IMG/VR virus record: IMGVR_UViG_2534681936_000019
DNA length: 26,751 bases
DNA from: a virus
Taxonomy: Duplodnaviria > Heunggongvirae > Uroviricota > Caudoviricetes
Direction: 5' to 3' (one strand)
Both the position numbers and the translations under genes were made by a program. The notes under the pieces were generated by a model that was given only the letters and a program-made list of their open reading frames with translations, was not told the origin of the DNA and did no database searches. This document shows, piece after piece, positions 3,433 to 26,751 of the stretch (the stretch's first letter is position 1; each line of letters begins with the position of its first letter).

Positions 3433-3635
3433 AACCTCACTCCCAGCGGACGACGGCGACGCCGGGTTGTCCCCAGTACCGACTCCGCATCATTGATCGC
3501 CCGGTTAAGCTCATCCAGAGAAGCCGCCGTATATTCAATTCTGCGACCATCTTTCTGGACAGACACCACCCGTTTACCGGTTAATAAATCAAGGCGCGCC
3601 TGACGCAGCGCCTGCAGTTCAGCGACTGTAACCAT
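3429..3635 (-). CDS. W: Head-tail joining protein (lambda gpW family)
   Basis: 68-aa ORF with LLTGKRVVSVQKDGRRIEYTAASLDEL and a basic C-terminus, matching lambda W (68 aa); positioned between terminase and portal. Confidence 0.85.
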   Translation of the reverse strand: MVTVAELQALRQARLDLLTGKRVVSVQKDGRRIEYTAASLDELNRAINDAESVLGTTRRRRRPLGVRL

Positions 3636-5547
3636 TCACTCCTCCGGACAGCTTCGCTGCCAGTTCTTTCAGGGTTGGCCGGGTCGTCTCTTCTTCCCGG
3701 GATTTTGCCAGTACAGCCAGATCAAGCTGCCAGCGTTGCACGGACACACGTAATGCCGCGTAGGCATACACCAGGCAGTCCAGCGCTTCGTTACGCCGCT
3801 TTTTGTTATCCCACAGCAGACGCATCTTTCCTTTTTCCCACTTCTCCACAAGCTCTTCCGCTACCAGTTGCTGCGCCTCTGTCTGCGAAAAAATCTCCGG
3901 ATCATCAGGAAAACGGATGGCATACGACGTGGCTTCATCCGCAGGCGTGGGATCGGCTTTCATACGGGCATAGAGAATTTCTTTTGCGGTGTCCGTCCCC
4001 ACTTCACACAGATACACGCCCCGCTGATTGCGGGTTTTCGGCATGGTGATCACCGGCTTGCCATAGACAGACGCGCCCTTTACCGGCAGCACCCGGAAAA
4101 CACCGTGTTTTTTTGATCTCTGATAAACAATTTCACCATCGATCCCCCCGGTGTCCCAGCAGACACGGGAAATAGTCATTTCGGTGCCATCCGCATGGCG
4201 GTATTTTTTGTTGATCGCCGCATCCACACGTAACAGCGTCTCTTCCTCATCAGGACGCCCCATAATGATGATTTTATCCACCAGAAAGGCTTCCTCTCCC
4301 GGAGCCCATCCCCAGACATACATCTCAAAACGGTTTCGCTGCGAGTCAATGCCCGCCGTCAGATAAACCACCCGGGCAGGCACCGCCGCCGTGTAACGCA
4401 CCACCTTATCCATCAGTACCTGGTGATCGAGTTTTTCGCCCACGGCCTCTTCCCAGGTCTCGCCCAGCGTGGTGTTCACAAAGGTTTTCAGGCCGTTGGG
4501 ATCTTTCAGTGCATCCAGCCAGTCATAGACAATCTGTACCCAGGTGGTGAACGGACTGTACGCCGTCCAGATATGGAACGTGATGGAGCGCGGCGGCGGA
4601 ATTTCATCACCCCGGGCGCTGAAAAACGTCAGACCGTCACGGGTCCACATGCCCGTGTTTTCACAGATCCACCGCCCGTTACTCTGGTCAAGCTCAGACT
4701 GATGGATCACACAGCCATGATGCTCACAAAGGTAGAAAACACTTTCTGGCTTATTCTTCTCCCACTTAAGACCGAAAGGCGAGGCATCATCGCCAAATTT
4801 CAGATACTGCTCCTCCCCACAGTGCGGACAGGGCACATAAAAACGCATGAAGTGTGCCGACTCGTTAGCGGCTTTTTCGATCTGGCAGGTGCCTTTGATT
4901 TTAGGCGTCGAGCCGCGAATGGATTTTGGCCACACCGACCCCTCAATACGCTTATCCCCCAGCAGGGTTGGCGAGCCCTCTTTTTCGACATCCGGCTCGA
5001 ACGAGGAAAGTTCGTCATAGCAGACCACGTCCACGGATTTTTCACGGTAGTTTTTGGCGGCAGCGCCGCCCAGGCACCAGAAACCGACGCCCGATGAAAA
5101 GCGTTTCAGCGTGAGAGTATTGTCACGATGTTTACGACCCAGCCATGGGGAAAGGTCTTTCAGGCATGGCACGTTCCGAATCGTCGCCTCCACGTGAGAC
5201 TTCATAAAATCTTCAGCGGCAGAATCCGTGGGCTGAAAAAGCAGACTGTTTCGGGATTTATGCTCAATAAAATACCCGACCACCCCCAGCAACATCTTTG
5301 TATAGCCAACACGGGCAGATTTAATCAGGTTAACCGTGCGAACCTGGTCGTTACCCATACAGTTCATAATGGCGATCTGGAATGGCAGCGTTTTCCATTC
5401 TCCCTCACCATATGAAGATTCTTTAGGCAGATAATAATTTTGATCAGCCCATTCAACTGCCGTCATTGGTACAACCCTGACCAGAGGCTGCAGCGCAACC
5501 GAAACGGCAGCCATCATATTATTCAGTTGTTGCTCTGATATATTCAT
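3619..5547 (-). CDS. A: Terminase large subunit (lambda gpA family)
   Basis: Near-collinear match to lambda gpA from MNISEQQ... (AVEWADQNYYLPKESSYGEGEWKTLPFQ, KNYREKSVDVVCYDELSSF, CPHCGEEQYLKFGD, WDTGGIDGEIVYQRSKKHG). Start set at the internal MNISEQQ ATG (5547), which overlaps the Nu1 stop as in lambda; the ORF track begins 19 codons upstream. Confidence 0.95.
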   Translation of the reverse strand: MNISEQQLNNMMAAVSVALQPLVRVVPMTAVEWADQNYYLPKESSYGEGEWKTLPFQIAIMNCMGNDQVRTVNLIKSARVGYTKMLLGVVGYFIEHKSRNSLLFQPTDSAAEDFMKSHVEATIRNVPCLKDLSPWLGRKHRDNTLTLKRFSSGVGFWCLGGAAAKNYREKSVDVVCYDELSSFEPDVEKEGSPTLLGDKRIEGSVWPKSIRGSTPKIKGTCQIEKAANESAHFMRFYVPCPHCGEEQYLKFGDDASPFGLKWEKNKPESVFYLCEHHGCVIHQSELDQSNGRWICENTGMWTRDGLTFFSARGDEIPPPRSITFHIWTAYSPFTTWVQIVYDWLDALKDPNGLKTFVNTTLGETWEEAVGEKLDHQVLMDKVVRYTAAVPARVVYLTAGIDSQRNRFEMYVWGWAPGEEAFLVDKIIIMGRPDEEETLLRVDAAINKKYRHADGTEMTISRVCWDTGGIDGEIVYQRSKKHGVFRVLPVKGASVYGKPVITMPKTRNQRGVYLCEVGTDTAKEILYARMKADPTPADEATSYAIRFPDDPEIFSQTEAQQLVAEELVEKWEKGKMRLLWDNKKRRNEALDCLVYAYAALRVSVQRWQLDLAVLAKSREEETTRPTLKELAAKLSGGVNGYSR

Positions 5548-7468: not shown

Positions 7469-7959
7469 GTATCCTCCGGATAATAAAAAGCCAGCTTAGT
7501 GCACTGAGTGCGGATATATTCCTGCGCCCCTTCCAGCTGCTTCTGCATTGTCATCAACCGTTCTCTGAGGATGAAATAATCCCGTTCAGCGGTGTCTGCC
7601 AGTCGGGGGCCGGTTGCATTATCCACGCTGGAGGTGCCGGTGGCTTCACGCACGGTACCGGGGCAGGTGGCGTTGACCCGCAGGCGCTTACGACCAGCGG
7701 CAACATCAGCGCGCAGAGTTTCAATTTCAGCTCTCGCATCGGCTAATTCCTTCGTGTATCTGGCATCAAGCGCAGCGACATCTCGCTGGCGCTGCTGCAT
7801 GTCAGTAATAGTGGCATTCGCCAGTTTCAGCTCACTGACTTTTTTATCGCGCTGCGCTTTGTAGGTGATGGCGTTATCGCGGTAATGATTCAGCCCCAGA
7901 CTAAGCACACCACAGGCTACCAGCAGGACAATAATCACCACACACAGAACACGGTTCAT
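7465..7959 (-). CDS. Rz: Rz inner-membrane spanin (i-spanin)
   Basis: From the internal start [40 protein letters not shown]...[25 protein letters not shown], near-collinear with lambda Rz; N-terminal TM helix. Confidence 0.85.
7554..7739 (-). CDS. Rz1: Rz1 outer-membrane lipoprotein spanin (o-spanin), embedded in Rz in the +1 frame
   Basis: [56 protein letters not shown]: lipobox plus proline-rich sequence matching lambda Rz1. Confidence 0.8.
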
Positions 7960-7960
7960 A

Positions 7961-8047
7961 TCACCACCAACGGATTGCCCAGACCAGAACAGCAATGGCC
8001 ACAATACGAATGGCAAATGCCATTGCCCGAATAAGTTCAGCACTCAT
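7961..8047 (-). CDS. Candidate 28-aa hydrophobic peptide immediately upstream of Rz
   Basis: [28 protein letters not shown]; stop adjoins the Rz ATG; sequence resembles the C-terminal segment of the neighbouring small ORF (RALAFAIKWVAVGIAV). Confidence 0.25.
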
Positions 8048-8058
8048 CTTTTTAAAGT

Positions 8059-8309
8059 TCACGATTTCAGCGCAATGACCAGTTTTGCCAGCCCATACAG
8101 CATCGGAGACACAGCAATACCAACAGCCACCCACTTAATAGCAAAAGCCAGCGCTCTGCTGATGTCATCAGTCACTGTCACCCCAGCAGCCCCGACGAAG
8201 ACAACATCACCCAGGCGAGGGACAGAAAAAGAGCAACCAGCATTAGTGAAAATGAAATACCGACAATCACACACAGGACCTTTGCCGGCGTTATGAGTTT
8301 GTCTGACAT
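8059..8309 (-). CDS. Candidate ~83-aa two-TM small membrane protein, frameshifted at a G-run
   Basis: ATG at 8309 with AAGGGG RBS gives MSDKLITPAKVLCVIVGISFSLMLVALFLSLAWVMLSSSG, then continues in another frame as ...GVTVTDDISRALAFAIKWVAVGIAVSPMLYGLAKLVIALKS (ORF 8059..8331). Confidence 0.3.
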
Positions 8310-8311
8310 AG

Positions 8312-8407
8312 CTACCCCTTAATTGCCACAATTAACTGGGATACTACCCATAAAAAAGGGATGCTCCAGACCAGCAAAAATTTCCAGTTTGGTAATTGAC
8401 TAATCAT
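8312..8407 (-). CDS. Candidate 31-aa single-TM peptide downstream of the endolysin
   Basis: Internal ATG at 8407 preceded by GGGAG about 9 nt upstream; MISQLPNWKFLLVWSIPFLWVVSQLIVAIKG. Confidence 0.3.
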   Translation of the reverse strand: MISQLPNWKFLLVWSIPFLWVVSQLIVAIKG

Positions 8408-8474
8408 GAGTCGCAACTCCCTAATCAGTTTGCTAAAATCAATCAAGGCAGCCTCCCATAGCTTACTGCCATAA

Positions 8475-8518
8475 AAACAAAACCCCGCTTGCTGCCAACA
8501 AACGGGGTTTTTACTTTT
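8475..8518. terminator. Intrinsic terminator hairpin downstream of the endolysin gene (T-tracts on both strands)
   Basis: AACCCCG ... CGGGGTT stem with a 15-nt loop, followed by TTTTTACTTTTAT on plus and TTTTGTTTTTAT on minus. Confidence 0.5.
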
Positions 8519-8601
8519 ATTCACTTACGTTTCGCCAGTTCGCAGGATTTCATGTTATCCGCCCGCGTGGCCATGCCTTATTTTTCAGCAAAATATTCTG
8601 C

Positions 8602-17544: not shown

Positions 17545-17823
17545 TTACCTCCAGATGCGTTGCTGGAATGTGCGGGACGGACGCGGTGGGCGCTCGGAGT
17601 ACGGCAGCCTGACGTAGATTATCCAGTGACGATAATCGAGGCTGAGGGCTTTCCTAAACTCATACCCACGTCTGCGGTAGTTCTGAATCAGCCATTCGGC
17701 CTGTTCTTCAGTGCATGGGGCGTGCCGGAACCAGTCAGATTTGAATGCATGAGAACGCCGCCCGTGCCTGCTGGCAAAGACGGCTGAATTATCAGAATTG
17801 TGTAGTCTGGAATTTTGCGCCAT
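17545..17823 (-). CDS. Hypothetical 92-aa protein (Rem-like position)
   Basis: ORF abutting the DUF968 gene; no recognisable motif. Confidence 0.4.
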   Translation of the reverse strand: MAQNSRLHNSDNSAVFASRHGRRSHAFKSDWFRHAPCTEEQAEWLIQNYRRRGYEFRKALSLDYRHWIIYVRLPYSERPPRPSRTFQQRIWR

Positions 17824-17892
17824 CGGCTTTCTCCGGTGGCACAGTGTTACTCAACAGGGGTTCAGCCCTGCGCTGAATTGTAGATGAATTCA

Positions 17893-18198
17893 CTAATCTT
17901 CAAAAGCAGAAAAACCAGCCTTAATCCCAGCTTCTTTCAGAGACGGCAACGATGTGACAAATTCATTTTCACGCAAAATAAAACCATCCGTCACAAGTCC
18001 ATCCACAAAGTAAATTAACGCAGCTCCACTCTTCCTATGTAGAGACTGTAAACATTTAATACGGCAGTGGCTGACAATAGCGCCATTCTCAACGCGCACA
18101 GTATAGAGGCCATCTTCACTAAAAATTTCACGTAATTCTTCGATTTTCATCAACAGAATCCTTCCAGATAAATAGCACTCCCCCTGTTCGGGGTCCAT
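17893..18198 (-). CDS. Hypothetical protein (likely start at internal MKIEELREIF, about 85 aa)
   Basis: ORF only; no recognisable motif. Confidence 0.35.
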   Translation of the reverse strand: MDPEQGECYLSGRILLMKIEELREIFSEDGLYTVRVENGAIVSHCRIKCLQSLHRKSGAALIYFVDGLVTDGFILRENEFVTSLPSLKEAGIKAGFSAFED

Positions 18199-18269
18199 CC
18201 CTCTTCTCCCTGCGCGCTACTTAAGTATTTTTGATTCTATTCTGGCACCGTCCAAAACTTCAAACACGT

Positions 18270-18304
18270 TGAAAATAAAAACAAAAAACCCGCCGAAGCG
18301 GGTA
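18270..18304 (-). terminator. Intrinsic terminator after the HTH-ImmA gene; copy 1 of a duplicated 20-nt hairpin
   Basis: Minus strand ACCCGC TTCG GCGGGT followed by TTTTTTGTTTTTATTTT; plus-strand 20-mer AAAAACCCGCCGAAGCGGGT at 18284-18303 recurs at 20119-20138. Confidence 0.6.
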
Positions 18305-18307
18305 TAC

Positions 18308-19414
18308 TCAAACAATCTGGAAAATATTTCTTGGATTTGTAATAGGTCTGTTGATGGAGAACAACTCACGAATTAAATCTTGGCTCAAGCCAGTTTTCAT
18401 AAGAATTCTTAGCCAGGTTGCATCATCCAGCATTTCAATCGCCTCGGCCAGCATGCCGGGTTCTTCAGGGCGCAAAAGTTCATCACCAGGTTCAACTCTC
18501 GTATACCCTCTGGAATTAAGATGCATATAGCCAGTTCTTGCCTGTTCCTGGGTCAATAAGCCTAATGCGCTGGCTCGATAAATACACATTTTAAGGCTGA
18601 TTTTCCATCTAAGTTTAAATTCAACCAGAGCATTCCAGTCGAATTGCTTACCTCGTATTCGTGGAAATTCTTTAATGAAAGATAACCTGGGAACTAATAA
18701 GGCGCTCGAAAAGTGATCGGCTTGTGATTCCGTAAGTTTATCACCTGTCGTTATGCCCTCATGCATTACTAAATGCCCTAATTCATGACCTAAATCAGAG
18801 CGAAATCTACATATGCTTTTTTTAACATTGTTCCTGATGATAACAGGCCTGTTATTGTGAACAGTAAAAGCATCAACACGATCATCGACTCCCGTAACAT
18901 GCGCAACGATTACCCCTAAACTCTCCGCCAATTTAACCATTGATGATATAGGGCCAAGACCTAAATTCCAGGCACGGCGACAATCTTCTGCCACTCGCTC
19001 AATATCATTCGGAGTAAGTAATTCAGCCCCTGGGTGCTCCGGTATGTTAACGTCAGGAAATTCGATTTCACCTTCAACAGCAGAAATTATAATATTAAGA
19101 ATCTCAGCCCTGGCCAATACACTATTAGTCAGCGTTTGAGTCCTGGACTTCTTACTCCGAAAATGGCAGACATCACTTTCCAGAGCGTATTTTCGTTCAG
19201 TAAAAAGAAAACTGGACTTAATCATAAGCGCTGAAGATATTAACTCAAGACATTGCTCCGATGGCCTGCACCCCTTCTCCAGTTTGCTAACAAATTGCTT
19301 TGTCTTGCCAATTTTTTCGGCTAACTCTTCACAAGAAAGCCCAACAGCCATTCTCGCTAGTTTGAGCTTATCACCCCGATACTCAGTGAAGTTATTCACC
19401 TGATGTTCCATCAC
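18308..19414 (-). CDS. XRE-family HTH fused to ImmA/IrrE-type zinc metallopeptidase (COG2856-like)
   Basis: N-terminal HTH (LKLARMAVGLSCEELAEKIGKTKQFVSKLEKG) and HEXXH motif (SDLGHELGHLVMHEG) plus a ~130-aa C-terminal extension. Confidence 0.85.
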   Translation of the reverse strand: MMEHQVNNFTEYRGDKLKLARMAVGLSCEELAEKIGKTKQFVSKLEKGCRPSEQCLELISSALMIKSSFLFTERKYALESDVCHFRSKKSRTQTLTNSVLARAEILNIIISAVEGEIEFPDVNIPEHPGAELLTPNDIERVAEDCRRAWNLGLGPISSMVKLAESLGVIVAHVTGVDDRVDAFTVHNNRPVIIRNNVKKSICRFRSDLGHELGHLVMHEGITTGDKLTESQADHFSSALLVPRLSFIKEFPRIRGKQFDWNALVEFKLRWKISLKMCIYRASALGLLTQEQARTGYMHLNSRGYTRVEPGDELLRPEEPGMLAEAIEMLDDATWLRILMKTGLSQDLIRELFSINRPITNPRNIFQIV

Positions 19415-20042
19415 TGCTCACATCCAAATCTTTATCCTTCGTACGCCGACGAAGAGGCACCTTATTAATCTCCGCTTCGTCAGGGAGTGTGTTATAATCA
19501 AGAGGCATAAGCGGCATCGATGCTGTAGATTGATGAGAAACTATACTAATCTGAGCACCATAAGTATTAAATCCAACAAGAGCTACCTCCCAACGAGGCA
19601 GTGTGGACTCTAATTCACCATCGCCCTCTTCGGATAAAAAAGGCTCAGCTATGACTCGCCATGTAATATCTTGCTCAGCCTCAACATCACCAAACAATGA
19701 GAGCTGCTCATACTCTACTTTATTTCGACGCAGACGATGTTTCTTTTTGGGGTTATTAATGCAATCTTTGGTAAATTGTAGCGGAACTTTATTTAAAGCA
19801 ACTACATAGTCCAACCCCTTGGAAATCATCTCAAGGCCAGGAATTGCATCTTCATTTTGAATAAGATGATTTCTGACCCAATCATAAGCCCTTACACCTT
19901 CAGACCAGTTGCTGTCTAATGCGTGCTTATGATAGTACAGCTGCTCAAGTACGTTAGCGATCTCCGCCAACAAGTGGCGAACATAGTTTTCAGCAAGATA
20001 AGGTTGAAATTCCCAACAAGGAGCTAACTGATTTTCATTCAT
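19392..20042 (-). CDS. Uncharacterised acidic 216-aa protein, translationally coupled (23-nt overlap) to the downstream HTH-ImmA gene
   Basis: Clean ORF MNENQLAPCWEFQPYLAENYVRHLLAEIANVLEQLYYHKH...; no recognisable domain. Confidence 0.6.
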   Translation of the reverse strand: MNENQLAPCWEFQPYLAENYVRHLLAEIANVLEQLYYHKHALDSNWSEGVRAYDWVRNHLIQNEDAIPGLEMISKGLDYVVALNKVPLQFTKDCINNPKKKHRLRRNKVEYEQLSLFGDVEAEQDITWRVIAEPFLSEEGDGELESTLPRWEVALVGFNTYGAQISIVSHQSTASMPLMPLDYNTLPDEAEINKVPLRRRTKDKDLDVSSDGTSGE

Positions 20043-20114
20043 TTCAAGTTTCGCTTTTTTTAGAATTCGTAAACCACATATTTTCGCATTTTTCTATTTT
20101 TGTCAACCAGACTA

Positions 20115-20140
20115 ATGCAAAAACCCGCCGAAGCGGGTTA
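20115..20140 (-). terminator. Intrinsic terminator after hok; copy 2 of the duplicated 20-nt hairpin
   Basis: Minus strand AACCCGC TTCG GCGGGTT + TTTTGC; shares the 20-mer AAAAACCCGCCGAAGCGGGT with 18284-18303. Confidence 0.6.
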
Positions 20141-20207
20141 AGTGCGGGTGCGTTGAGGATGCCTGGCACATCAGAGGTGGCGGGAGATTACTCCCCCGCC
20201 GGGTCTC

Positions 20208-20363
20208 TTACTCCTCAGGTTCGTAAGCTGTGAAGACAGCGACCTCCGTCTGGCCGGTTCGGATTCGTACCTCGCAGAGGTCTTTCCTCGTTACCAGTGC
20301 CGTCACTATGACGGTTAAACAGATGACGATCAGGGCGATTAACATCGCCTTTTGCTGCTTCAT
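20208..20363 (-). CDS. hok: Hok-family type I toxin (HokD/RelF-like, 51 aa)
   Basis: MKQQKAMLIALIVICLTVIVTALVTRKDLCEVRIRTGQTEVAVFTAYEPEE, a Hok/Gef sequence; below the ORF-track size cut-off. Confidence 0.9.
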   Translation of the reverse strand: MKQQKAMLIALIVICLTVIVTALVTRKDLCEVRIRTGQTEVAVFTAYEPEE

Positions 20364-20421
20364 AGCCTGCTTCTCCTTGACCTTTTGGTCCGTAAGAGGC
20401 TAACCTACATGTGTCTAGCAT
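20215..20421 (-). CDS. mok: mok-like overlapping reading frame (modulation of killing)
   Basis: 68-aa ORF in another frame covering almost all of hok, as in hok/mok/sok loci. Confidence 0.55.
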   Translation of the reverse strand: MLDTCRLASYGPKGQGEAGYEAAKGDVNRPDRHLFNRHSDGTGNEERPLRGTNPNRPDGGRCLHSLRT

Positions 20422-20575
20422 GAAATTGGCCTCAGATTAATGTTAAGCGTCTTGCAGGACGCGTAATGTTAACTGGGGCTTTTCTCTATCTGCCTTTGGT
20501 GTTCATGCCCGAGGCAGATAGCCTCAAGCACCCGCAGCCATTCTACTTAACTACCGTTACCTCGCCAATGTGAAA

Positions 20576-20797
20576 TCAGTCAGAAAGGCGATCCATAAGA
20601 ACAATAGCAAGACAATAAATCGCCATTACAGCCGTAATAGCCAGCGCACATTTGAGAACCAGCACCACACAACCTCCTGTATTGGACGTACACCAGTCCT
20701 GATGAATATGAGGCTGTCTCGTCAGTGATTCAATACAACTATTGGGTATAGTTTCTCTGATTTTTTCTGTGGAAATGGGGCTCAACCCACTAGTCAT
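20576..20797 (-). CDS. Hypothetical ORF; probably only a 29-aa hydrophobic peptide (GTG start, 20576..20665) is real
   Basis: AGGAGG about 7 nt upstream of an internal GTG gives VLVLKCALAITAVMAIYCLAIVLMDRLSD. Confidence 0.25.
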   Translation of the reverse strand: MTSGLSPISTEKIRETIPNSCIESLTRQPHIHQDWCTSNTGGCVVLVLKCALAITAVMAIYCLAIVLMDRLSD

Positions 20798-21117
20798 TTA
20801 ATACGCAAAGTCCGACACAAGCTAACCTTCTAGTCCGCTTTGAGCGAGGAGCGGACCTTGTGTAAAAATCCCCATACCGGTTGATCGCGCTGAATGTTAG
20901 GTTCATAAACGACACAGGGTACATCGTAATGCTGCTCTATTGCTTCGTAAGTGATTCCCAATCGCTGCATCACTCGCTGAGAAGGAGTTCGACAACAGCC
21001 ACTAAATAGTTGTGCATAGAGAACGACTGGAAAAGGCCGTAGGAACTTACAAATCTCAATTCACGGTAGAGTATGATATGGGTATTCAATATAAATACAG
21101 CCCTCAAAGGTTTAAAT

Positions 21118-21473
21118 ATGAACGGAAGTGTTAAAAACAATCTATCGTCAAAAAAGTACAAGCTAAAAGAAAAATTTTGAATTTGAATCGCGAGCTTTCT
21201 AATGGAAAGATCACTCAGGCTGATTATTGTCTATACAAAAAACTGTTTGAAGACTACATTCAGGTATTAACATTTCAACACACAAGAATTTTTGTGGAAA
21301 AAGATTTAATAGAACTATCAAATCATCGAAGTGGAGTATTCATTACAACTCAGCATGATACATTAGTAAATAGACTTGACAAAATTGATTATGAAATTGA
21401 CAGATTAAAAAACTGTTTAAATAAAAAATTATCGATTACACAAAATTCACATCCCTATATTAGGATTTTCTAA
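21118..21473 (+). CDS. Hypothetical AT-rich ORF, possibly frameshifted (ATG at 21118 is in another frame from the 21177..21473 ORF)
   Basis: The 98-aa ORF has no in-frame ATG (TTG start); an ATG with upstream AAAGG lies at 21118 in another frame, and several A-runs sit between them. Confidence 0.3.
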
Positions 21474-21615
21474 GAGTACGACACCGTCACATTTAAATAT
21501 TATCTGTAGAGGTAAAATGACAGCCTGACGGCGGTATTTCATTGCGAAATGCTATTTAAAAGACCGCATTGAGCGGTCTTATGTATCTCACAACATATTA
21601 CAGAATGACTTTAAA

Positions 21616-23069
21616 CTATTGTTTTAATAACATTTCAAAATCCTCATTCCAGTGCGTGTTTTGTGAAATACGGGTATCAATTTCATCAAGCAGCATATCA
21701 TGAGAAAGTATGCTTAAAGGGTCATTCCCATTTTTACCAAAACGCATCGTAGTTTCTGCTATTTCCCAATCTTCTGCGCTGATTGATGGCTGTATTGCAT
21801 GGCAGTAGATAGCCTTCACATCCTTTTCATGACAGTCAAAATTATTGATGCTTTCTGCAATTTTACGAGCTCTTTCAATTTCGACAACTGGACCATGTAA
21901 AGTTTCATATGATATGTGCACAATTGTAGGGGTATTATCTGGAACCTGTCGTACCGCTTTGCTTAAGTGCGTTTTAATATCTTTTGCTTTTTTATTAATC
22001 GATTCCTCTGCTATACATTCCCAACGAGCACAGTAACCAGAGTGTATTCCAGTGCAAAAAATGTTAAGTATATCAACACCGTCGTCCGGACCTACTCGTA
22101 CAAGTCCTTTTGGGGCACAAAGATGAGTGTAATTTTCGCTGCTGCTAAAACTTCCGGCCAACAACGAAACCATCTGTGGAGAGTTCCATTTAACTATGTA
22201 TTTTTCAAAATGCTCATTGATATTTTTCATATCTATTCTATTAATCAGTATTATAATTTCATCATTTTCTATTCTCAGTGACTTTTTCGTCGAGATATTA
22301 GACTTTATTTCATTGAAGATTTTTGCTAAAATATATTCATCTGTATCTTTTACTTCAACCTTGAAAAGCACGTCTAAAAATATATTTTGTCTAGACTGAG
22401 TTAGAATAGGTACTAAATTGAGCCATCTTTGCCTCCATTCTCGACGCTCATTTTCAGAATATTCAGTCACTTTAGATAAACGCTTACATTCCACAAAAAA
22501 GCTTTCTTCACCTTTAGTAACTTTTAAATCAGGAGTTTTATTTAATGCTGTTTCTGGAATAAATTCTACTCTATAACCATTGCGCGCATACATAATCGCA
22601 ACAACTAATTCAAACAATGTTGAATCAGGTTGATTTATTTTACCGTTAAGAAATTCCGAAAGTTTTTCATCAATCCCAACAATTTTTTTTGCAAGCTCAA
22701 TATGTCTTCCAACAGCCGCAAAAAAGGGAAATACTCGGGCTGATTGCGCTAACTCGCTAACTAAAGGCCGTTCATGTAAGCATTCTACAAGAAAAAGATA
22801 CCATGCAACCCAATCCTCATGAAATGCCACCCTATTTTTTGGCTCTTCCATACTCTTCATTGCTTGGTCAAAATTCTTATAGGTGTTATCTTCCTGTTCT
22901 CTGAAGTACTTGACTACATTTTTTTGCGAGTCTCCCAAGTATCCTTTTCCAGATAAGATAAAAACCAGTCCAATGCGATTTTCGTATGATGATGCCAGGG
23001 ACTGGTATCCGTTGCTGCAAAAATCTCTTGTAGTTCTTTTGAATATTCCAATGTCTGTGTGTTAGCCAT
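21616..23069 (-). CDS. PD-(D/E)xK nuclease-like protein (~484 aa if a poly-A frameshift at 22919-22925 is bridged), AT-rich cargo gene
   Basis: Motif block ELVVAIMYARNGYRVEFIPE...TPDLKV...ESFFVECKRLSK (E, PD, ExK). ORF track gives 21616..22938 (TTG start); an ATG at 23069 with GAGGT RBS opens MANTQTLEYSKELQEIFAATDTSPWHHH..., which joins the main frame if the A7 run were A8. Confidence 0.6.
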
Positions 23070-23440
23070 TTTGACCTCATCATTGTTAATTTATGAGATT
23101 TTACAACTTATAATGCATCTTCCAGATCGAGCCTCCAAGTAAGAAATCAGGCTAAATCAGACAGATATGTAATATATCCCTAGTCAATTAGGCAGTCCAC
23201 CCATAAATCCTAACAGTACGAAAATGGTTGGAACGTTATCCTAGGTTACTGCTCATCGTTTCCTTATGACCTCAATATATAAATATCCCAGCTCTTGCGG
23301 TTCGATTGTATGATTGACAGTCCGCTCCTGGCACAAAGCGGACAACCACGCCAGATCTACCCTGTGCCATGAAAAATGAGAATGTCAATTCACTCCTGAA
23401 CTAATGCTTTTTAATCTAGTAACGTCTAAAATACCTAACA

Positions 23441-23842
23441 TTATCCCTGATAAAATGCCAGTATGCGCTGCATAACTTCACTCATCCGGCACTCGCGACA
23501 GATTATGTTTAGGCGACTGTCGTAGCGACGTATTTCTCCATCAGGTAACGACCAGATAAGGTCCGGATCAACCACAGCTGTTTTCTTCACCTTTGCCCTC
23601 GATAGTTTTTTGCGGGCGTTTTGCCAGTCCTTACGCGCCTGTTCAGACGGGAATAACCCGTAGCCGGAGTTGTATACATCGCCACTGGCTACCAGCTCTC
23701 TGGCAAGAACGCTCATCAGATATCTAGTCGCACCTGTTTTAGCTTCCAGTTGCCGTAACGTCTCACGACCGCTCTGGCGCACGAGTTCCACCACCTGCCC
23801 TTTAATTTTTTCCCGCTCTTCTTGTGTAAAAACTTTTGCCAC
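23441..23842 (-). CDS. Hypothetical 133-aa early-region protein
   Basis: ORF MAKVFTQEEREKIKGQVVELVRQSGRETLRQLEAKTGATRYLMSVLARELV... (possible winged-helix); downstream of the replication gene. Confidence 0.45.
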   Translation of the reverse strand: MAKVFTQEEREKIKGQVVELVRQSGRETLRQLEAKTGATRYLMSVLARELVASGDVYNSGYGLFPSEQARKDWQNARKKLSRAKVKKTAVVDPDLIWSLPDGEIRRYDSRLNIICRECRMSEVMQRILAFYQG

Positions 23843-23882
23843 AAGTCCCCCTTAAAATTACCTCATGACCTGAAATCAAAAC

Positions 23883-24902
23883 TTATCCTCTGAAACCAGG
23901 CGGAATTTCTGTATCCGGTTCAGAAATATGATTCACACAACGCTGTACAGGTGAACGTCCCAGGCGGATGACCAGTTCGTCCCATTTTTCGCGGAGTTTT
24001 GACGGGCTCATGATGTTTTTTACCCAGAATGGATCCCGCTGTACCCGACCAAACATTTCGCAAATTTGTCTGTGGCTTCTGCCATCCAGCATCCGCATTG
24101 TGCGCACGTCATTGGCCCAGGCTGTCCAGTTAGGCTCTTTTGGTCGCATGATCTCTCCATCGTCGCTGGCAGCCTGTTCGTAAAGGTTCACGATCCGCCC
24201 CCAAATCCACTGCGCACACGCCAAATCCTCCCTGCTACCCCACTGGCGTTTTTTCACACTAAACACAACCGCGTCGGGGTTCCGGGTTAAAAAATCCTGT
24301 TCAGTCGTCTGCGGGTCCGGTTGCGAAGCTTCCGGACGAAAAGTGTTTTTATTCTCTGTAGTAATCTCTGTTGTATTCTCTGTAAGATCATCAGGCCATT
24401 TTGACCCGATGACATTGGGTCGTTTTGAACCAATGGAGCGTTTCATTTTGACCTCTTCCATCGTGTCATTTTGACCTGATGTAGCGGCGCATTTTGAATC
24501 GATGGATTCGTTCAATTTGCCACCATCTAAAAGCTCGCTCCCATAGTTGATCGTGTAGAAATTGGTCATATCGCGCTTTGATTTATTGAGCTTTTCACAA
24601 CGCAAAAGCCCCAGCGTTTTCAGACTTGCAAACGCGCGCTTTAACGTTGACTCTGACCAGAATGGGAACTGTTCCAGCCATTGTTCCGTTGTGTTATAAA
24701 TCCAGCGAACACCATCACATTCCATACCGGAGTTGGTATCTCTCAACCAGTAGTGCAGTTGTTGCAAAACAATGGCTTCGTTTAAGCCGATTTTCATTGC
24801 CAGCTGCGTGTTTATAACCAGTGGGCGTTCAGCAAAAAGAAGACTCATAATTCCATCCAGCTTTTTGTTGGTATTGCTGTCGATACGCAAGCTTGAAAGC
24901 AA
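23883..24902 (-). CDS. Putative phage replication initiator / replisome-organiser protein
   Basis: 339-aa ORF in the position of lambda O; N-terminal HTH-like segment (LVINTQLAMKIGLNEAIVLQQLHYWL), acidic linker with TEN repeats, conserved C-terminal domain. Confidence 0.5.
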   Translation of the reverse strand: MLSSLRIDSNTNKKLDGIMSLLFAERPLVINTQLAMKIGLNEAIVLQQLHYWLRDTNSGMECDGVRWIYNTTEQWLEQFPFWSESTLKRAFASLKTLGLLRCEKLNKSKRDMTNFYTINYGSELLDGGKLNESIDSKCAATSGQNDTMEEVKMKRSIGSKRPNVIGSKWPDDLTENTTEITTENKNTFRPEASQPDPQTTEQDFLTRNPDAVVFSVKKRQWGSREDLACAQWIWGRIVNLYEQAASDDGEIMRPKEPNWTAWANDVRTMRMLDGRSHRQICEMFGRVQRDPFWVKNIMSPSKLREKWDELVIRLGRSPVQRCVNHISEPDTEIPPGFRG

Positions 24903-25350
24903 TTGCTTTTTCTATAAGTTCGTCAGTTTCACGATCTACAACGGCAGGATCTGCAAAAAGCAGTCCAGATTCCACCACATCGCCATATTCTTTATTTAAC
25001 CCGGCGATCATGTACGTAATACTTTTTCCATCACTGATCTCACGATACAACCTGAAATCACTAATCCGGATAGCCTCCATAATTGCAGGCACTAGCGCTG
25101 TGAACTTTTCACGCTTATCCCTGGTGTCGATAGCCTTCCAGCGTTCGAATATCTTCACTCGATTAACGCTAAGCGCTCGCTGATCAACCGCGCCACCTTC
25201 ATATGTGACACGCTGAACATCGATGTTCGGGCGCTCTTTCAAAGCCCAGAATGCTTCAGTGATTAATATCGTCGCCTGCTCCTGTGTCATTCCTGGTCGA
25301 CATATCCAGGCATCCAGAGCCTCACGAGCCTGTTCAGGAGTGATTTTCAT
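24829..25350 (-). CDS. Hypothetical early protein downstream of cro/dicC (YdaT/cII-like position)
   Basis: 173-aa ORF overlapping the dicC-like stop; no motif I can name. Confidence 0.4.
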   Translation of the reverse strand: MKITPEQAREALDAWICRPGMTQEQATILITEAFWALKERPNIDVQRVTYEGGAVDQRALSVNRVKIFERWKAIDTRDKREKFTALVPAIMEAIRISDFRLYREISDGKSITYMIAGLNKEYGDVVESGLLFADPAVVDRETDELIEKAIAFKLAYRQQYQQKAGWNYESSFC

Positions 25351-25564
25351 TGTTCAACCGCCCCGCCCGCTTCGTCTTACGATATTCGTCATAAACTTTG
25401 GGATCATACTGAAGCTCCCCGCCAGATGCCTCCTGTAGACGCATCGCGCGACCTTCAGGAACCAGTATCCCCCAAGCAGCAACACTTGCCAGTCTCACTC
25501 CTGCGGCATTGGCAAGCTTTGTTTTGCTGCCAAAAAAAGTAATTGCGTCAACTTTAAGCATCAA
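25334..25564 (-). CDS. dicC: Cro/DicC-like small regulator
   Basis: 76-aa ORF divergent from the DicA-like repressor; LKVDAITFFGSKTKLANAAGVRLASVAAW...AMRLQEASGGELQYDPKVYDEY. Confidence 0.7.
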   Translation of the reverse strand: MMLKVDAITFFGSKTKLANAAGVRLASVAAWGILVPEGRAMRLQEASGGELQYDPKVYDEYRKTKRAGRLNNENHS

Positions 25565-25641
25565 AGCCCCCTCTTGTTAGATTTTTCTAACATTATTGTG
25601 CGCGGGATACCTAAGTCAAGAAAAATTAGAATTACCTAACT

Positions 25642-26049
25642 ATGGATACAAGAACCTTAGGCCAGCGAGTTCTGGCGCGACGAAAAGAATTACGCTTAAC
25701 ACAACGAGAAGCTGCGCGCCTCGCTGGAGTTGCTCACGTCACAATTTCACAATGGGAAAGAGACGAAACCCAGCCAGTCGGAAAACGATTGTTTGCTTTA
25801 GCGGATGCTCTGAAGTGCTCACCTACATGGCTAATGTTTGGTGACGAAGACAAGGCACCAGTGCCTGCACAAGAACTTCATGTGGAAACAGAGCTAACTC
25901 CCAACCACAAAGAATTGATCGAATTATTCGATGCTCTTCCATCTTCCGAGCAGGAAGCCTTGCTGTCTGAAATGCGCGCAAGAGTAGAAAACTTCAACAA
26001 ACTCTTCGAAGAAATGCTTAAAGCGCGTAAAAATAAATCAATAAAATAA
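25642..26049 (+). CDS. dicA: DicA-like XRE-family repressor (no peptidase domain)
   Basis: 135 aa; HTH LTQREAARLAGVAHVTISQWERDETQPVGKRLFALADALKCSPTWLMFGDED and C-terminus LSEMRARVENFNKLFEEMLKARKNK, near-collinear with E. coli DicA. Confidence 0.85.
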   Translation: MDTRTLGQRVLARRKELRLTQREAARLAGVAHVTISQWERDETQPVGKRLFALADALKCSPTWLMFGDEDKAPVPAQELHVETELTPNHKELIELFDALPSSEQEALLSEMRARVENFNKLFEEMLKARKNKSIK

Positions 26050-26217
26050 CATTCTTTTCAAGTGATTAGTTGCGCCCACTCTTTTTGTTAGACCAATCTA
26101 ACAAAAAACACTTGTCTCTCATGTTAGGTTATTCTAAATTACTTTCCATCAAGACACCGCACGGTGTTCTCAGCAAACAGTTCCGCTACCCCGGCGTTAA
26201 GGGGAAATGAGGTCAGC

Positions 26218-26373
26218 ATGGATACTATCGATCTTGGCAACAACGAATCTCTGGTGTACGGCGTGTTTCCAAACCAGGACGGCACGTTCACCGCAATGAC
26301 GTATACCAAAAGCAAAACGTTTAAAACCGAATCTGGAGCGCGTCGCTGGCTGGAAAGAAATTCAGGTGGGTGA
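26218..26373 (+). CDS. Small protein, YdfA-like (51 aa from internal ATG)
   Basis: GGGGAAATGAGG RBS then ATG; MDTIDLGNNESLVYGVFPNQDGTFTAMTYTK...; position matches ydfA after dicA in Qin. Confidence 0.5.
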   Translation: MDTIDLGNNESLVYGVFPNQDGTFTAMTYTKSKTFKTESGARRWLERNSGG

Positions 26374-26374
26374 T

Positions 26375-26503
26375 ATGGATTTCGACACAATCATGGAAAA
26401 GGCTTACGAAGAATACTTCGAAGGCCTTGCCGAAGGCGAAGAAGCTCACAGCTTCAACGAATTTAAACAGGCGCTTTCCAGTTCGGCAAAATCTAATGGC
26501 TGA
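26375..26503 (+). CDS. Small acidic protein, YdfB-like (42 aa; below ORF-track cut-off)
   Basis: MDFDTIMEKAYEEYFEGLAEGEEAHSFNEFKQALSSSAKSNG; tightly packed after the previous ORF. Confidence 0.45.
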   Translation: MDFDTIMEKAYEEYFEGLAEGEEAHSFNEFKQALSSSAKSNG

Positions 26504-26532
26504 TAAGCGAAACAGCACCGCGAGGAATCAGT

Positions 26533-26751
26533 ATGCAGAAACGAGAACCCGTCATCATCGCGCCAGACTATACCAATGATGAACTTTATGAGTGGATGCA
26601 CCAGAAAATTAATGCAGCGCAGGATCTGAAATGGGCTAATGAAGTCAGGGCTAAGCAGGCTGAAAATCTGTCCTCTCTGGAGCAGGATATCACCAATCTG
26701 GAAAAAGCAGCGGCATTAACCATTGCCAGAATGATTACATACCCGCGTTAA
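26533..26751 (+). CDS. Small protein, YdfC-like (72 aa)
   Basis: Complete ORF ending in TAA at the window edge; position and size match ydfC. Confidence 0.5.
   Translation: MQKREPVIIAPDYTNDELYEWMHQKINAAQDLKWANEVRAKQAENLSSLEQDITNLEKAAALTIARMITYPR

What the first reader, a model, noticed from the sequence alone, without database searches (positions are those of the whole stretch)
21616..23069. AT-rich cargo gene encoding a PD-(D/E)xK nuclease-like protein with a large unknown C-terminal domain
The protein carries a textbook restriction-endonuclease-fold motif block (E...PD...ExK: ELVVAIMYARNGYRVEFIPE / TPDLKV / FFVECK) in its N-terminal third, followed by about 300 residues without recognisable motifs. 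The gene sits in a visibly AT-rich island between the replication genes and hok, unlike the flanking phage backbone. Single-gene nuclease effectors of this architecture are typical of anti-phage defence genes on prophages. The reading frame is also split at an A7 run (22919-22925): the ATG with a good RBS is at 23069 and the body is in the +1 frame.
Basis: partly seen in the sequence, partly recalled or inferred. Interest (0 to 1): 0.7.

Follow-up and report, generated by a model that had tools for sequence, protein, structure and literature searches.

The report
Orphan prophage nuclease, likely anti-phage defence
An AT-rich cargo gene in an E. coli prophage encodes an uncharacterised three-domain protein with a restriction-enzyme-type nuclease core. 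It sits where phages usually keep anti-phage defence genes, and its broken reading frame is most likely a one-base sequencing error.

Summary
A minus-strand gene at 21616-23069 is split at an A7 run (22919-22925), carries an E...PD...ExK block, and lies in a 35.6% GC island with flanks near 47%.

The split is most likely an artefact. The finished genome of E. coli O55:H7 DEC5A, apparently the same strain, has A8 and an intact 484-aa protein (WP_115203268.1). FDAARGOS_946 and more than 300 other contigs also carry intact alleles. A7 does recur in two other assemblies.

The family has about 1000 clusters at 50% identity. It has no Pfam, NCBIfam or PADLOC model, and its PHROG is 'unknown function'. 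The gene is always solitary and is found in lambdoid and P2-like prophage cargo slots, conjugative plasmids and defence islands.

In E. coli the same DUF977-hokD slot is empty in one strain and holds the defence candidate PDC-S33 in another. A Rosmer system lies about 1.5 kb away in this window.

Best reading: an undescribed single-gene anti-phage nuclease. The defence function is inferred from context and has not been tested.

The parts
21616..23069 (-). Whole gene. It encodes a 484-aa protein when the A-run is A8; in this window it is split by a 1-nt deletion.
   Evidence: The repaired translation is identical to WP_115203268.1, annotated in NZ_CP065607.1 and NZ_CP038394.1.
22914..23069 (-). 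N-terminal 51-aa ORF (ATG 23069), ending at a premature TAG created by the missing A. It contains the family-conserved W35, F36, W45 and R48.
   Evidence: The same 51-aa product is called in two other assemblies.
21616..22938 (-). Body ORF (440 aa from a mechanical TTG start), in the -1 frame relative to the N-terminal ORF.
   Evidence: The exact 440-aa and 414-aa products are on record only from a 315,330-nt contig; the 414-aa one is named as E. coli DEC5A ECDEC5A_2415.
22919..22925 (-). A7 homopolymer, the frameshift site. It is A8 in all 4 complete E. coli genomes read here, including the finished DEC5A genome.
22683..22690 (-). Second homopolymer (A8 here). It is contracted to A7 in strain JNE21-003, where it splits the gene at a different point.
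   Evidence: The resulting 333-aa product is seen on 3 contigs.
23075..23078 (-). Shine-Dalgarno GAGG, 5 nt upstream of the ATG.
   Evidence: Read directly from the sequence.
22636..23069 (-). N-terminal all-helical domain (residues 1-145), with conserved aromatic and basic residues (W45, R48, D86, W90, Y91, Q109, R112). Function unknown; proposed regulatory or sensor role.
   Evidence: Secondary structure and pLDDT; conservation.
22351..22635 (-). PD-(D/E)xK nuclease core (residues 146-240). Catalytic codons: E154 = 22609-22611, D181 = 22528-22530, E194 = 22489-22491, K196 = 22483-22485.
21619..22350 (-). C-terminal alpha/beta domain(s), residues 241-484. Invariant residues are K361, A362, A372, Q375, H385, E389, G393, E397, R400, K403, E439, T440; near-invariant are H424, Q427, H473, W474, D477. 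No convincing structural neighbour.
21557..21580 (-). Terminator-like hairpin (AAGACCGC-tcaat-GCGGTCTT plus TTT), 36 nt after the stop codon.
   Evidence: Sequence. RNAfold gives -15.1 kcal/mol for a 46-nt stretch containing the hairpin. It did not pass the strict consensus terminator scan.
23070..23319 (-). AT-rich 5' intergenic region of the cargo, with weak sigma-70-like hexamers (for example 23199-23171). A possible own promoter.
   Evidence: the promoter-like count is not above the shuffled expectation, so this is inference only. IS2 is inserted in this region in strain 201609.
20857..23319 (.). Cargo island (35.6% GC) that fills the DUF977-hokD slot of the prophage.
   Evidence: Homology to other E. 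coli prophages stops at about 20860 and about 23304.
20833..20856 (.). 24-nt hairpin-forming repeat at the hok-side edge of the slot (GTCCGC-12 nt-GCGGAC). It is an inverted copy of the one at 23320-23343.
   Evidence: 24 nt, 92% complementary. It also flanks the alternative PDC-S33 cargo in strain CH4793, where the sequences diverge immediately after it.
23320..23343 (.). 24-nt hairpin-forming repeat at the DUF977-side edge of the slot.

Best explanation
The gene encodes a solitary, horizontally mobile 484-aa enzyme with three conserved domains: an N-terminal helical domain, a central Mrr/Hjc-type PD-(D/E)xK metal-dependent nuclease (E154, D181, E194, K196), and an orphan-fold C-terminal domain.

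It is a prophage 'moron' cassette (RBS, gene, hairpin terminator) sitting in an exchangeable cargo slot between the replication genes and hokD. I infer that it protects the lysogen against other phages. Its intact form is the real one: the A7 run in this window is most likely an under-called A8.

Proposed mechanism (inferred, not shown): the nuclease is kept harmless in uninfected cells because no immunity or methylase partner exists. The flanking N- and C-terminal domains would do this, either by gating the active site or by restricting substrate choice. Infection, through a phage protein or a phage-specific nucleic-acid feature, would then license DNA cleavage. That would stop phage replication directly or by arresting the cell, as in other single-protein PD-(D/E)xK defences such as GAPS1.

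Shown: the fold, the invariant catalytic residues, solitary gene status, mobile-element and defence-hotspot contexts, and the intact allele in relatives.

Inferred: nuclease activity, defence function, autoinhibition and the trigger.
For: Fold and active site:
- AF2 model has pLDDT 89.1 and pTM 0.89.
- E154, D181, E194-C-K196-R197 are invariant in 47 sequences from Gammaproteobacteria to Bacteroidota.
- Mrr_cat aligns to this segment at E 0.098, 0.0025 and 0.0034 in three members.

Accessory and mobile character:
- 11 of 5426 complete E. coli genomes carry it, one copy each.
- It is AT-poor relative to its flanks in E. coli, Pantoea, Aeromonas, Marinobacterium and Pseudomonas.
- No conserved neighbour in 24 loci.

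Defence context:
- The same DUF977-hokD slot is empty in K207-3, holds PADLOC candidate PDC-S33 (RelA/SpoT, E 5e-119) in CH4793, and holds other single genes elsewhere.
- In this window a Rosmer system (RmrA E 6e-105, RmrT E 4.6e-25) lies on the other side of hok/sok.
- The Pantoea homolog (72% identity) sits between gpA and portal gpQ, the P2 hotspot defined by Rousset et al. (PMC9122126), next to PDC-M02A/B.
- Phage 899 and GMG73 carry a homolog between tail-fibre assembly and sheath genes.
- 16 of 29 IMG/VR loci are P2-like; in the one I read in full (L055) the gene lies at the prophage end beside int and CI.
- Neighbours elsewhere include GajA (3 loci), AAA_15/AriA-like proteins, HamA, AbiTii, OLD-TOPRIM, HipA and Prok-E2/JAB.
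- Six of eight randomly chosen unknown genes from P4 hotspots proved defensive in PMC13586616.

Intact allele:
- A8 and a 484-aa CDS are found in the finished DEC5A genome, FDAARGOS_946, EC93 and others.
- Over about 16 kb the window differs from finished DEC5A only by two 7-versus-8 homopolymer calls.
Against: - No experiment links any family member to phage resistance.
- No PADLOC, Pfam or NCBIfam model matches at threshold, and the only PHROG match (phrog_37220) is annotated 'unknown function'.
- The defence argument is guilt by association.
- Sequence-level similarity to solved nucleases is absent. Foldseek against the PDB gives nothing below E 0.1.
- I could not inspect coordinates to confirm that D181, E194 and K196 superpose on a known active site.
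- The C-terminal domain has no informative neighbour, so the sensor role is conjecture.
- Some contexts are ambiguous: a plasmid region rich in antirestriction and orphan methyltransferase genes, and a dnd cluster.
- A7 alleles exist in two other assemblies, so a true mutation in this isolate is not excluded.
Confidence: 0.5

Rival explanations
1. Direct restriction enzyme of Type IV or 'orphan' kind. The protein would be constitutively active but cut only DNA carrying a feature the host lacks, such as a modified base, phosphorothioate status or an unusual structure. The C-terminal and/or N-terminal domain would read that feature. This is still defence, but without a trigger or abortive infection.
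For: - The gene is solitary with no methylase or immunity partner in 24 loci, as is typical of Mrr-type enzymes.
- One distant homolog (29% identity) directly follows a DGQHR_dnd_1 gene beside dndBCD on a Rhizobium plasmid.
Against: - The dnd linkage was seen once only.
- Mrr_cat scores are below the gathering threshold in every member tested.
Confidence: 0.2
2. A mobile-element utility nuclease, not a defence gene. It would serve the element that carries it, for example by degrading host or competitor DNA, acting in cassette or element mobility (a transposase or homing-like enzyme), or acting as an addiction toxin.
For: - NCBI names the alphaproteobacterial homologs 'transposase'.
- The gene is found on 66 plasmids, 54 of them conjugative, including a region with antirestriction and orphan methyltransferase genes.
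- It often lies next to integrases.
- The cargo slot is bounded by inverted 24-nt hairpins.
Against: - The 'transposase' name has no HMM support: no NCBIfam hit for five such proteins and no Pfam domain on record for the branch's proteins.
- There is one copy per genome in all 368 matching E. coli genomes.
- The same hairpins flank an unrelated cargo (PDC-S33), so they belong to the slot and not to this gene.
- No antitoxin-like partner is conserved.
- The gene is absent from the great majority of related prophages, so it is not needed for the phage life cycle.
Confidence: 0.12
3. The A7 run is real in this isolate. The gene would then be an inactivated pseudogene, or a phase-variable (ON/OFF) locus switched by slipped-strand mispairing at poly-A tracts, reflecting a fitness cost of the nuclease.
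For: - A7 at the same tract occurs on a different allele background in GCA_002417555.1 and in a Logan assembly of SRR28227355.
- A second A8 tract is contracted in JNE21-003 and two further assemblies.
- A Psychrobacter homolog is split at an A-run that reads A6 where an extra A would restore the frame.
- IS2 sits in the upstream region in strain 201609.
Against: - The exact truncated products of this allele are on record only from a single 315,330-nt contig, and the 414-aa one is named as DEC5A. The finished DEC5A genome has A8. Closed O55:H7 genomes of that study were PacBio assemblies polished with Illumina reads (PMC9413875), though I did not verify that DEC5A itself was one of the strains sequenced there.
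- The only other difference across 16 kb is another 7-versus-8 homopolymer, in non-coding DNA.
- Intact alleles outnumber frameshifted ones roughly 315 to 14 contigs, far from the mixed populations expected of fast phase variation.
- The A8 tract is not conserved in Serratia or other homologs.
Confidence: 0.25

Closest known systems
GAPS1 (Vibrio parahaemolyticus GMT-island single-protein defence; Mahata et al., bioRxiv 10.1101/2023.03.28.534373)
   Same: Both are single proteins with no partner gene, are carried on mobile elements and have a PD-(D/E)xK active site embedded between non-catalytic regions. In GAPS1 the D and K residues are 15 residues apart (D313, K328), the same spacing as D181 and K196 here. 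In GAPS1 the D/K residues are required for defence, and a phage capsid protein triggers growth arrest. This is the best working model for how the present protein may act.
   Different: GAPS1 homologs are about 532 aa with the motif at about 60% of the length. Here the motif is at 38-40% of 484 aa and is followed by a 288-aa conserved region. The E. coli accessions of this family were not found in the held, truncated part of the paper's homolog table. GAPS1 homologs are concentrated in Klebsiella pneumoniae; among the chromosomal homologs listed here none is from Klebsiella, and only distant copies (about 29% identity) occur on Klebsiella plasmids. No sequence comparison was possible.
Mrr-type / AF1548-type restriction endonuclease domain (Pfam PF04471 Mrr_cat; PDB 1y88)
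   Different: Scores are below Pfam's gathering threshold (13.2, 18.4 and 17.9 bits against 21). There is no Mrr-like N-terminal winged-helix DNA-binding domain. Instead the core is flanked by two family-specific domains.
Nuclease effectors of multi-gene defence systems: HamA (Hachiman), NucC (CBASS/type III CRISPR), Can2/Card1, Shedu SduA
   Different: Those effectors depend on a helicase partner, a cyclic-nucleotide signal or defined sensor domains (CARF, DUF4263). This gene has no conserved partner and matches no PADLOC model.
Other cargo of the same prophage slots: PDC-S33 (RelA/SpoT) in the DUF977-hokD slot; old/tin and PDC-M02 in the P2 gpA-gpQ hotspot
   Same: They occupy the same genomic position and follow the same cassette logic: one or two genes, low GC, exchanged between otherwise near-identical prophages.
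   Different: The proteins are unrelated and the biochemistry differs.

Membership tests
PD-(D/E)xK (restriction-endonuclease-like) nuclease superfamily | Core alpha-beta-beta-beta-alpha-beta fold | tested here: met
PD-(D/E)xK (restriction-endonuclease-like) nuclease superfamily | Conserved acidic and lysine residues in the canonical places (E on helix 1, D at the start of strand 2, (D/E)xK on strand 3) | tested here: met
   E154, D181, E194 and K196 are invariant in 47 homologs. Their positions match the predicted secondary structure. Superposition on a solved active site was not inspected.
PD-(D/E)xK (restriction-endonuclease-like) nuclease superfamily | Metal-dependent phosphodiester cleavage | not testable with these tools
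   This needs purified protein and D181A/E194A/K196A controls.
Pfam Mrr_cat (PF04471) | Score at or above the gathering threshold (21 bits) | tested here: not met
   13.2 bits for the E. coli protein; 18.4 and 17.9 bits for two distant members; eight others give no hit.
Known or candidate defence systems in PADLOC-DB v2.0.0 | Significant match to any of 5027 models | tested here: not met
   Only noise-level hits (GajB, E 0.015; AbiEi, E 0.019) for the E. coli protein. No hits for nine distant members or the phage 899 homolog.
GAPS1 | Domain architecture: about 530 aa with the PD-(D/E)xK site toward the C-terminus (D313, K328) | tested here: not met
   Here the protein is 484 aa with the site at D181/K196, followed by 288 conserved residues.
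GAPS1 | Sequence homology to WP_005477165.1 and its homologs | tested here: inconclusive
WP_115203268, WP_032341362 and WP_097467093 are absent from the paper's held supplement text, but that table was cut when stored.
Type IV (modification-dependent) restriction enzymes | A recognisable modified-DNA reader domain (SRA-like, winged helix, etc.) fused to the nuclease | tested here: not met
Type IV (modification-dependent) restriction enzymes | Cleavage only of modified DNA | not testable with these tools
   This needs in vitro assays on hmC, ghmC, 6mA and PT DNA.
Transposase (the name NCBI gives to the alphaproteobacterial homologs) | Support from a curated transposase model; multiple copies per genome | tested here: not met
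   No NCBIfam hit for five proteins of the alphaproteobacterial branch, four of them named 'transposase', and no Pfam domain on record for that branch. There is one place per genome in all 368 E. coli genomes with a match. The hairpins at the island edges also flank unrelated cargo.
Programmed frameshift / transcriptional-slippage gene | The frameshift site is conserved and required in relatives | tested here: not met
   Relatives have A8 and a single continuous ORF. Serratia has no A-run at this site and is also in frame.

The most novel reading that the evidence does not exclude
This is the E. coli representative of an undescribed family of solitary three-domain nucleases, with about 1000 clusters at 50% identity across Proteobacteria and Bacteroidota. 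The family would constitute a new single-gene anti-phage system. Its orphan-fold C-terminal domain, which carries invariant His, Glu, Arg and Lys residues, would be a new kind of infection sensor or a second catalytic site. The gene would travel as a cassette between hairpin-bounded slots of lambdoid and P2-like prophages. Its poly-A tracts would act as mutational switches that turn off a costly gene.
Probability: 0.4. Interest if true: 0.6.

Novelty: new variant of a known kind. Interest (0 to 1): 0.5.

Why it matters
If the gene is defensive, it adds a broadly distributed, compact (1.45 kb) single-protein immune system that current annotation tools (PADLOC v2.0.0, Pfam, NCBIfam, PHROGs) miss.

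Its two domains have no structural precedent, and they could reveal a new way of sensing infection or of gating a nuclease.

It also marks the DUF977-hokD interval of Rac/Qin-type lambdoid prophages as an exchangeable cargo slot bounded by 24-nt hairpins. That gives a handle for mining further candidates.

On the practical side, the case shows how a single homopolymer under-call in a draft genome turns an intact gene into an apparent frameshifted one.

Tried and rejected
- Foldseek against AFDB50 was unavailable.
- Foldseek against the PDB gave nothing below E 0.1.
- Profile searches of PDB sequences returned only chance-level hits, both with the whole family and with the nuclease sub-alignment.
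- A conserved partner gene was searched for by all-against-all BLAST of neighbours in 24 loci. None was found.
- The 98-aa plus-strand ORF in the AT-rich tail (21177-21473) has no Pfam or PADLOC match.
- Programmed frameshifting was rejected because relatives are in frame.
- Annotated homologs of 404-414 aa looked like further frameshifts. The Serratia one proved to be a mis-called start on an intact ORF, so such lengths were not counted. Three other truncated homologs had no DNA on record.
- The 'transposase' label of alphaproteobacterial homologs was checked and found unsupported.
- GAPS1 membership could not be tested by sequence, and the architecture disagrees.
- Literature searches for the protein accessions found nothing. 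The supplements of the DefensePredictor preprint are not held.
- The consensus promoter and terminator scan was uninformative.
Full report
**What is in the window**

On the minus strand an ATG at 23069, preceded by GAGG with a 5-nt spacer, opens a 51-aa ORF that ends at 22914. A 440-aa ORF (21616-22938) overlaps it in another frame. The two frames meet in a run of seven A at 22919-22925.

Adding one A yields a continuous 484-aa protein.

The gene has 35.9% GC and 28.3% GC3. The surrounding 2.46-kb island has 35.6% GC, against about 47% in both flanks, and the adjacent replication genes have GC3 near 51%.

RefSeq annotation of identical DNA and Rfam place the gene in a Rac/Qin-like lambdoid prophage.

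**The frameshift**

The region is found in only 11 of 5426 complete E. coli genomes. All four complete genomes I read carry A8 at the first tract. Three of them have an intact 484-aa CDS: FDAARGOS_946, DEC5A and EC93. The fourth, JNE21-003, is split at the second A tract.

The exact truncated products of this window (440 aa and 414 aa) are on record only from a 315,330-nt contig; the 414-aa one is named as E. coli DEC5A, ECDEC5A_2415. The finished DEC5A chromosome (NZ_CP038394.1) encodes the intact protein WP_115203268.1.

From window position 10820 to 26751, the only differences from that finished genome are two single-base homopolymer differences of 7 versus 8. One is this tract; the other is in non-coding DNA at 15690. 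Closed O55:H7 genomes of that study were PacBio assemblies polished with Illumina reads (PMC9413875); I did not verify that DEC5A was among the strains newly sequenced there.

The simplest reading is an under-called homopolymer in a draft assembly. I put this at about 75%.

It is not certain, for four reasons:
- The same A7 occurs on a different allele background in GCA_002417555.1 and in a Logan assembly.
- The second A8 tract (22683-22690) is contracted in JNE21-003 and two other assemblies.
- A Psychrobacter homolog is split at another A-run.
- Even so, intact alleles outnumber frameshifted ones by roughly 315 to 14 contigs.

The tract is not conserved: Serratia has AAG GAA AAT at the site and is in frame. 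Programmed frameshifting is therefore rejected. A truncated product would lack the invariant W45 and R48.

**The protein**

A word-indexed search found 87 clusters (90% identity), all 'hypothetical', in Gammaproteobacteria, Desulfuromonadales and Bacteroidota. A profile search of 1.84 billion representatives found 1009 clusters at E <= 1e-3 and 237 at E <= 1e-30. Most of those listed are 430-470 aa and match over their full length. This is a sizeable family with a fixed architecture.

It has no Pfam, NCBIfam or PADLOC model. Its only PHROG (37220) is 'unknown function'.

The 47-sequence alignment shows invariant residues in both halves:
- Nuclease region: N146, P148, D149, E154, E173, D181 and E194-C-K196-R197.
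- C-terminal region: K361, A362, Q375, H385, E389, G393, E397, R400, K403, E439 and T440. H424, Q427, H473, W474 and D477 are near-invariant.

AlphaFold2 gives a confident compact model (pLDDT 89.1, pTM 0.89). It has a helical N-terminal domain (about residues 10-145), an alpha-beta-beta-beta-alpha-beta core (146-240) and a further alpha/beta region.

- numerous type II restriction enzymes

Sub-threshold Mrr_cat alignments fall on the same segment in three members. The nuclease fold and an intact catalytic constellation are thus well supported. Catalysis itself is untested.

**Context**

All-against-all comparison of neighbours in 24 loci found no gene that travels with it. Neighbours within about 2.5 kb include the following:
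- GajA, in 3 loci
- other AAA_15/AriA-like ATPases
- HamA
- AbiTii
- OLD-type TOPRIM
- PIN
- integrases
- a Tn3 transposase

Four kinds of temperate-phage cargo position hold family members:

1. The lambdoid replication-to-hok/nin slot. This covers the present window and two IMG/VR phages with a 43%-identical copy.
2. The P2 gpA-gpQ interval. In Pantoea the 72%-identical copy sits there beside PDC-M02A/B, and a further IMG/VR locus (L071) has the gene beside portal and terminase genes. Rousset et al. defined this interval as a defence hotspot that holds old and tin in P2 (PMC9122126).
3. The interval between tail-fibre assembly and sheath genes in phage 899 and Yersinia phage GMG73. From my own knowledge, this is where P2 carries Z/fun.
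4. The prophage end. In the one such locus read in full (L055) the gene is convergent with int and CI. 16 of 29 IMG/VR loci have a P2-type gpA nearby.

The family is also found elsewhere:
- on 66 plasmids, 54 of them conjugative
- in a small integrase island in Aeromonas
- in a Bradyrhizobium island with HipA and Prok-E2/JAB genes
- once directly after a DGQHR_dnd_1 gene beside dndBCD

**The slot in E. coli**

Homology between this prophage and thousands of hokD-bearing prophages stops at about 20860 and about 23304. Other strains fill the same slot differently:
- K207-3: DUF977 abuts hokD, so the slot is empty.
- CH4793: a 341-aa RelA/SpoT protein that matches PADLOC candidate PDC-S33 at E 5e-119.
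- WCHEC035148 and O157:H7 NE92: other single genes.

The slot is bracketed by inverted copies of a 24-nt hairpin-forming sequence, GTCCGC-N12-GCGGAC, at 20833-20856 and 23320-23343. The same pair flanks the PDC-S33 cargo, and the sequences diverge immediately after the hairpin.

In this window the two genes beyond hok/sok are a Rosmer system: RmrA at E 6e-105 and RmrT at E 4.6e-25.

The gene has its own Shine-Dalgarno sequence and a hairpin followed by a short T-run, within a 46-nt stretch that folds at -15.1 kcal/mol, 36 nt after the stop. This gives it the layout of a phage moron. A promoter is not demonstrated.

**Interpretation**

The most likely reading is a single-gene anti-phage nuclease. 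A non-specific nuclease without an immunity or methylase partner must be restrained. So either the flanking domains gate the active site until infection is sensed, or they restrict it to non-self DNA.

For the first option, the best functional analogue is GAPS1. It is a single PD-(D/E)xK protein whose D and K residues are required for defence and which a phage capsid protein activates (bioRxiv 10.1101/2023.03.28.534373). The second option is a Type IV-like enzyme. I favour the first (0.5) over the second (0.2), because no known DNA-modification reader fold is present. The data do not decide between them.

A mobile-element utility role (0.12) is weakly suggested by the 'transposase' label on alphaproteobacterial homologs and by some plasmid contexts. 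However, the label has no model support and the gene is single-copy.

Membership of GAPS1 is not supported by architecture: that protein is about 532 aa with the site at D313/K328, against 484 aa with D181/K196 here. It could not be tested by sequence.

**Novelty and interest**

The effector fold and the 'solitary nuclease in a prophage hotspot' pattern are familiar. Vassallo et al. noted PD-(D/E)xK-like motifs in 11 of 21 new E. coli systems (PMC9519451). What is new is the family itself, which is absent from the libraries I could search, and its two orphan domains.

I rate it a new variant of a known kind. It is a good candidate for experimental testing but not a surprise to a specialist. 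The frameshift, which gave the finding part of its appeal, is probably an artefact.

Noticed in passing
window 18308-20042 (- strand): This is a complete Rosmer anti-phage system. The 368-aa HTH plus M78-peptidase protein matches RmrA (PADLOC E 6e-105) and the 216-aa protein matches RmrT (E 4.6e-25). With hok/sok and the nuclease gene, it forms a defence mini-island in the early-right region of the prophage.
   Followed up: partly
window 20833-20856 and 23320-23343; also L041 5726 and 7419, L042 5726/7956/9897/9939: Inverted 24-nt hairpin-forming repeats (GTCCGC-N12-GCGGAC) sit exactly at the borders of the exchangeable cargo. They recur at the borders of unrelated cargo in other E. coli prophages, and additional copies lie between successive genes in strain WCHEC035148. 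They may be recombination anchors for cassette exchange, or terminators that bracket morons.
   Followed up: partly
window 15690: A second 7-versus-8 homopolymer difference from the finished DEC5A genome lies in the intergenic region between the CPBP-family gene and Q. It supports homopolymer under-calling in the source assembly.
   Followed up: yes
window 10626-10820: The window carries about 137 nt (10641-10777) that are absent from the finished DEC5A genome, next to a poorly aligning stretch (10780-10819) just downstream of the 616-aa SASA-family esterase gene. This is a possible local mis-assembly or repeat difference.
   Followed up: no
window 14778-15602 (- strand): A CPBP/Rce1-like (Abi-type) intramembrane protease gene sits in another low-GC patch (about 39% GC) between Q and the tRNA cluster. 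It is another probable moron. It has no PADLOC match.
   Followed up: partly
L047 3228-6368 (Rhizobium leguminosarum plasmid NZ_CP007048.1): A 29%-identical family member, annotated 'transposase', starts 27 nt after a DGQHR_dnd_1 gene (TIGR04172, E 9e-140). It lies next to dndBCD, a possible link of one branch of the family to phosphorothioate-based self/non-self discrimination. This arrangement was seen only once.
   Followed up: partly
L045 (E. coli 201609, NZ_CP048107.1) 3442-4670; L003 1159-2372: Insertion sequences lie next to the gene in two of the 11 complete genomes. IS2 is about 170 nt upstream of the ATG in strain 201609. An IS3-family element lies downstream in JNE21-003, which also has the second-tract frameshift.
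   Followed up: no
L018 about 7861-9377 (Psychrobacter glacincola): The homolog is split in its N-terminal domain at an A-run (ATATAAAAAAGCTC) where one more A would restore the frame. This is an independent homopolymer frameshift in another genus.
   Followed up: partly
window 21177-21473 (+ strand) and the AT-rich tail 20857-21615: About 750 nt of 34% GC DNA between the gene's terminator and the hok-side hairpin contain only a 98-aa TTG-start ORF with no Pfam or PADLOC match. This tail is absent downstream of the Pantoea homolog. It is possibly a remnant of earlier cargo.
   Followed up: partly
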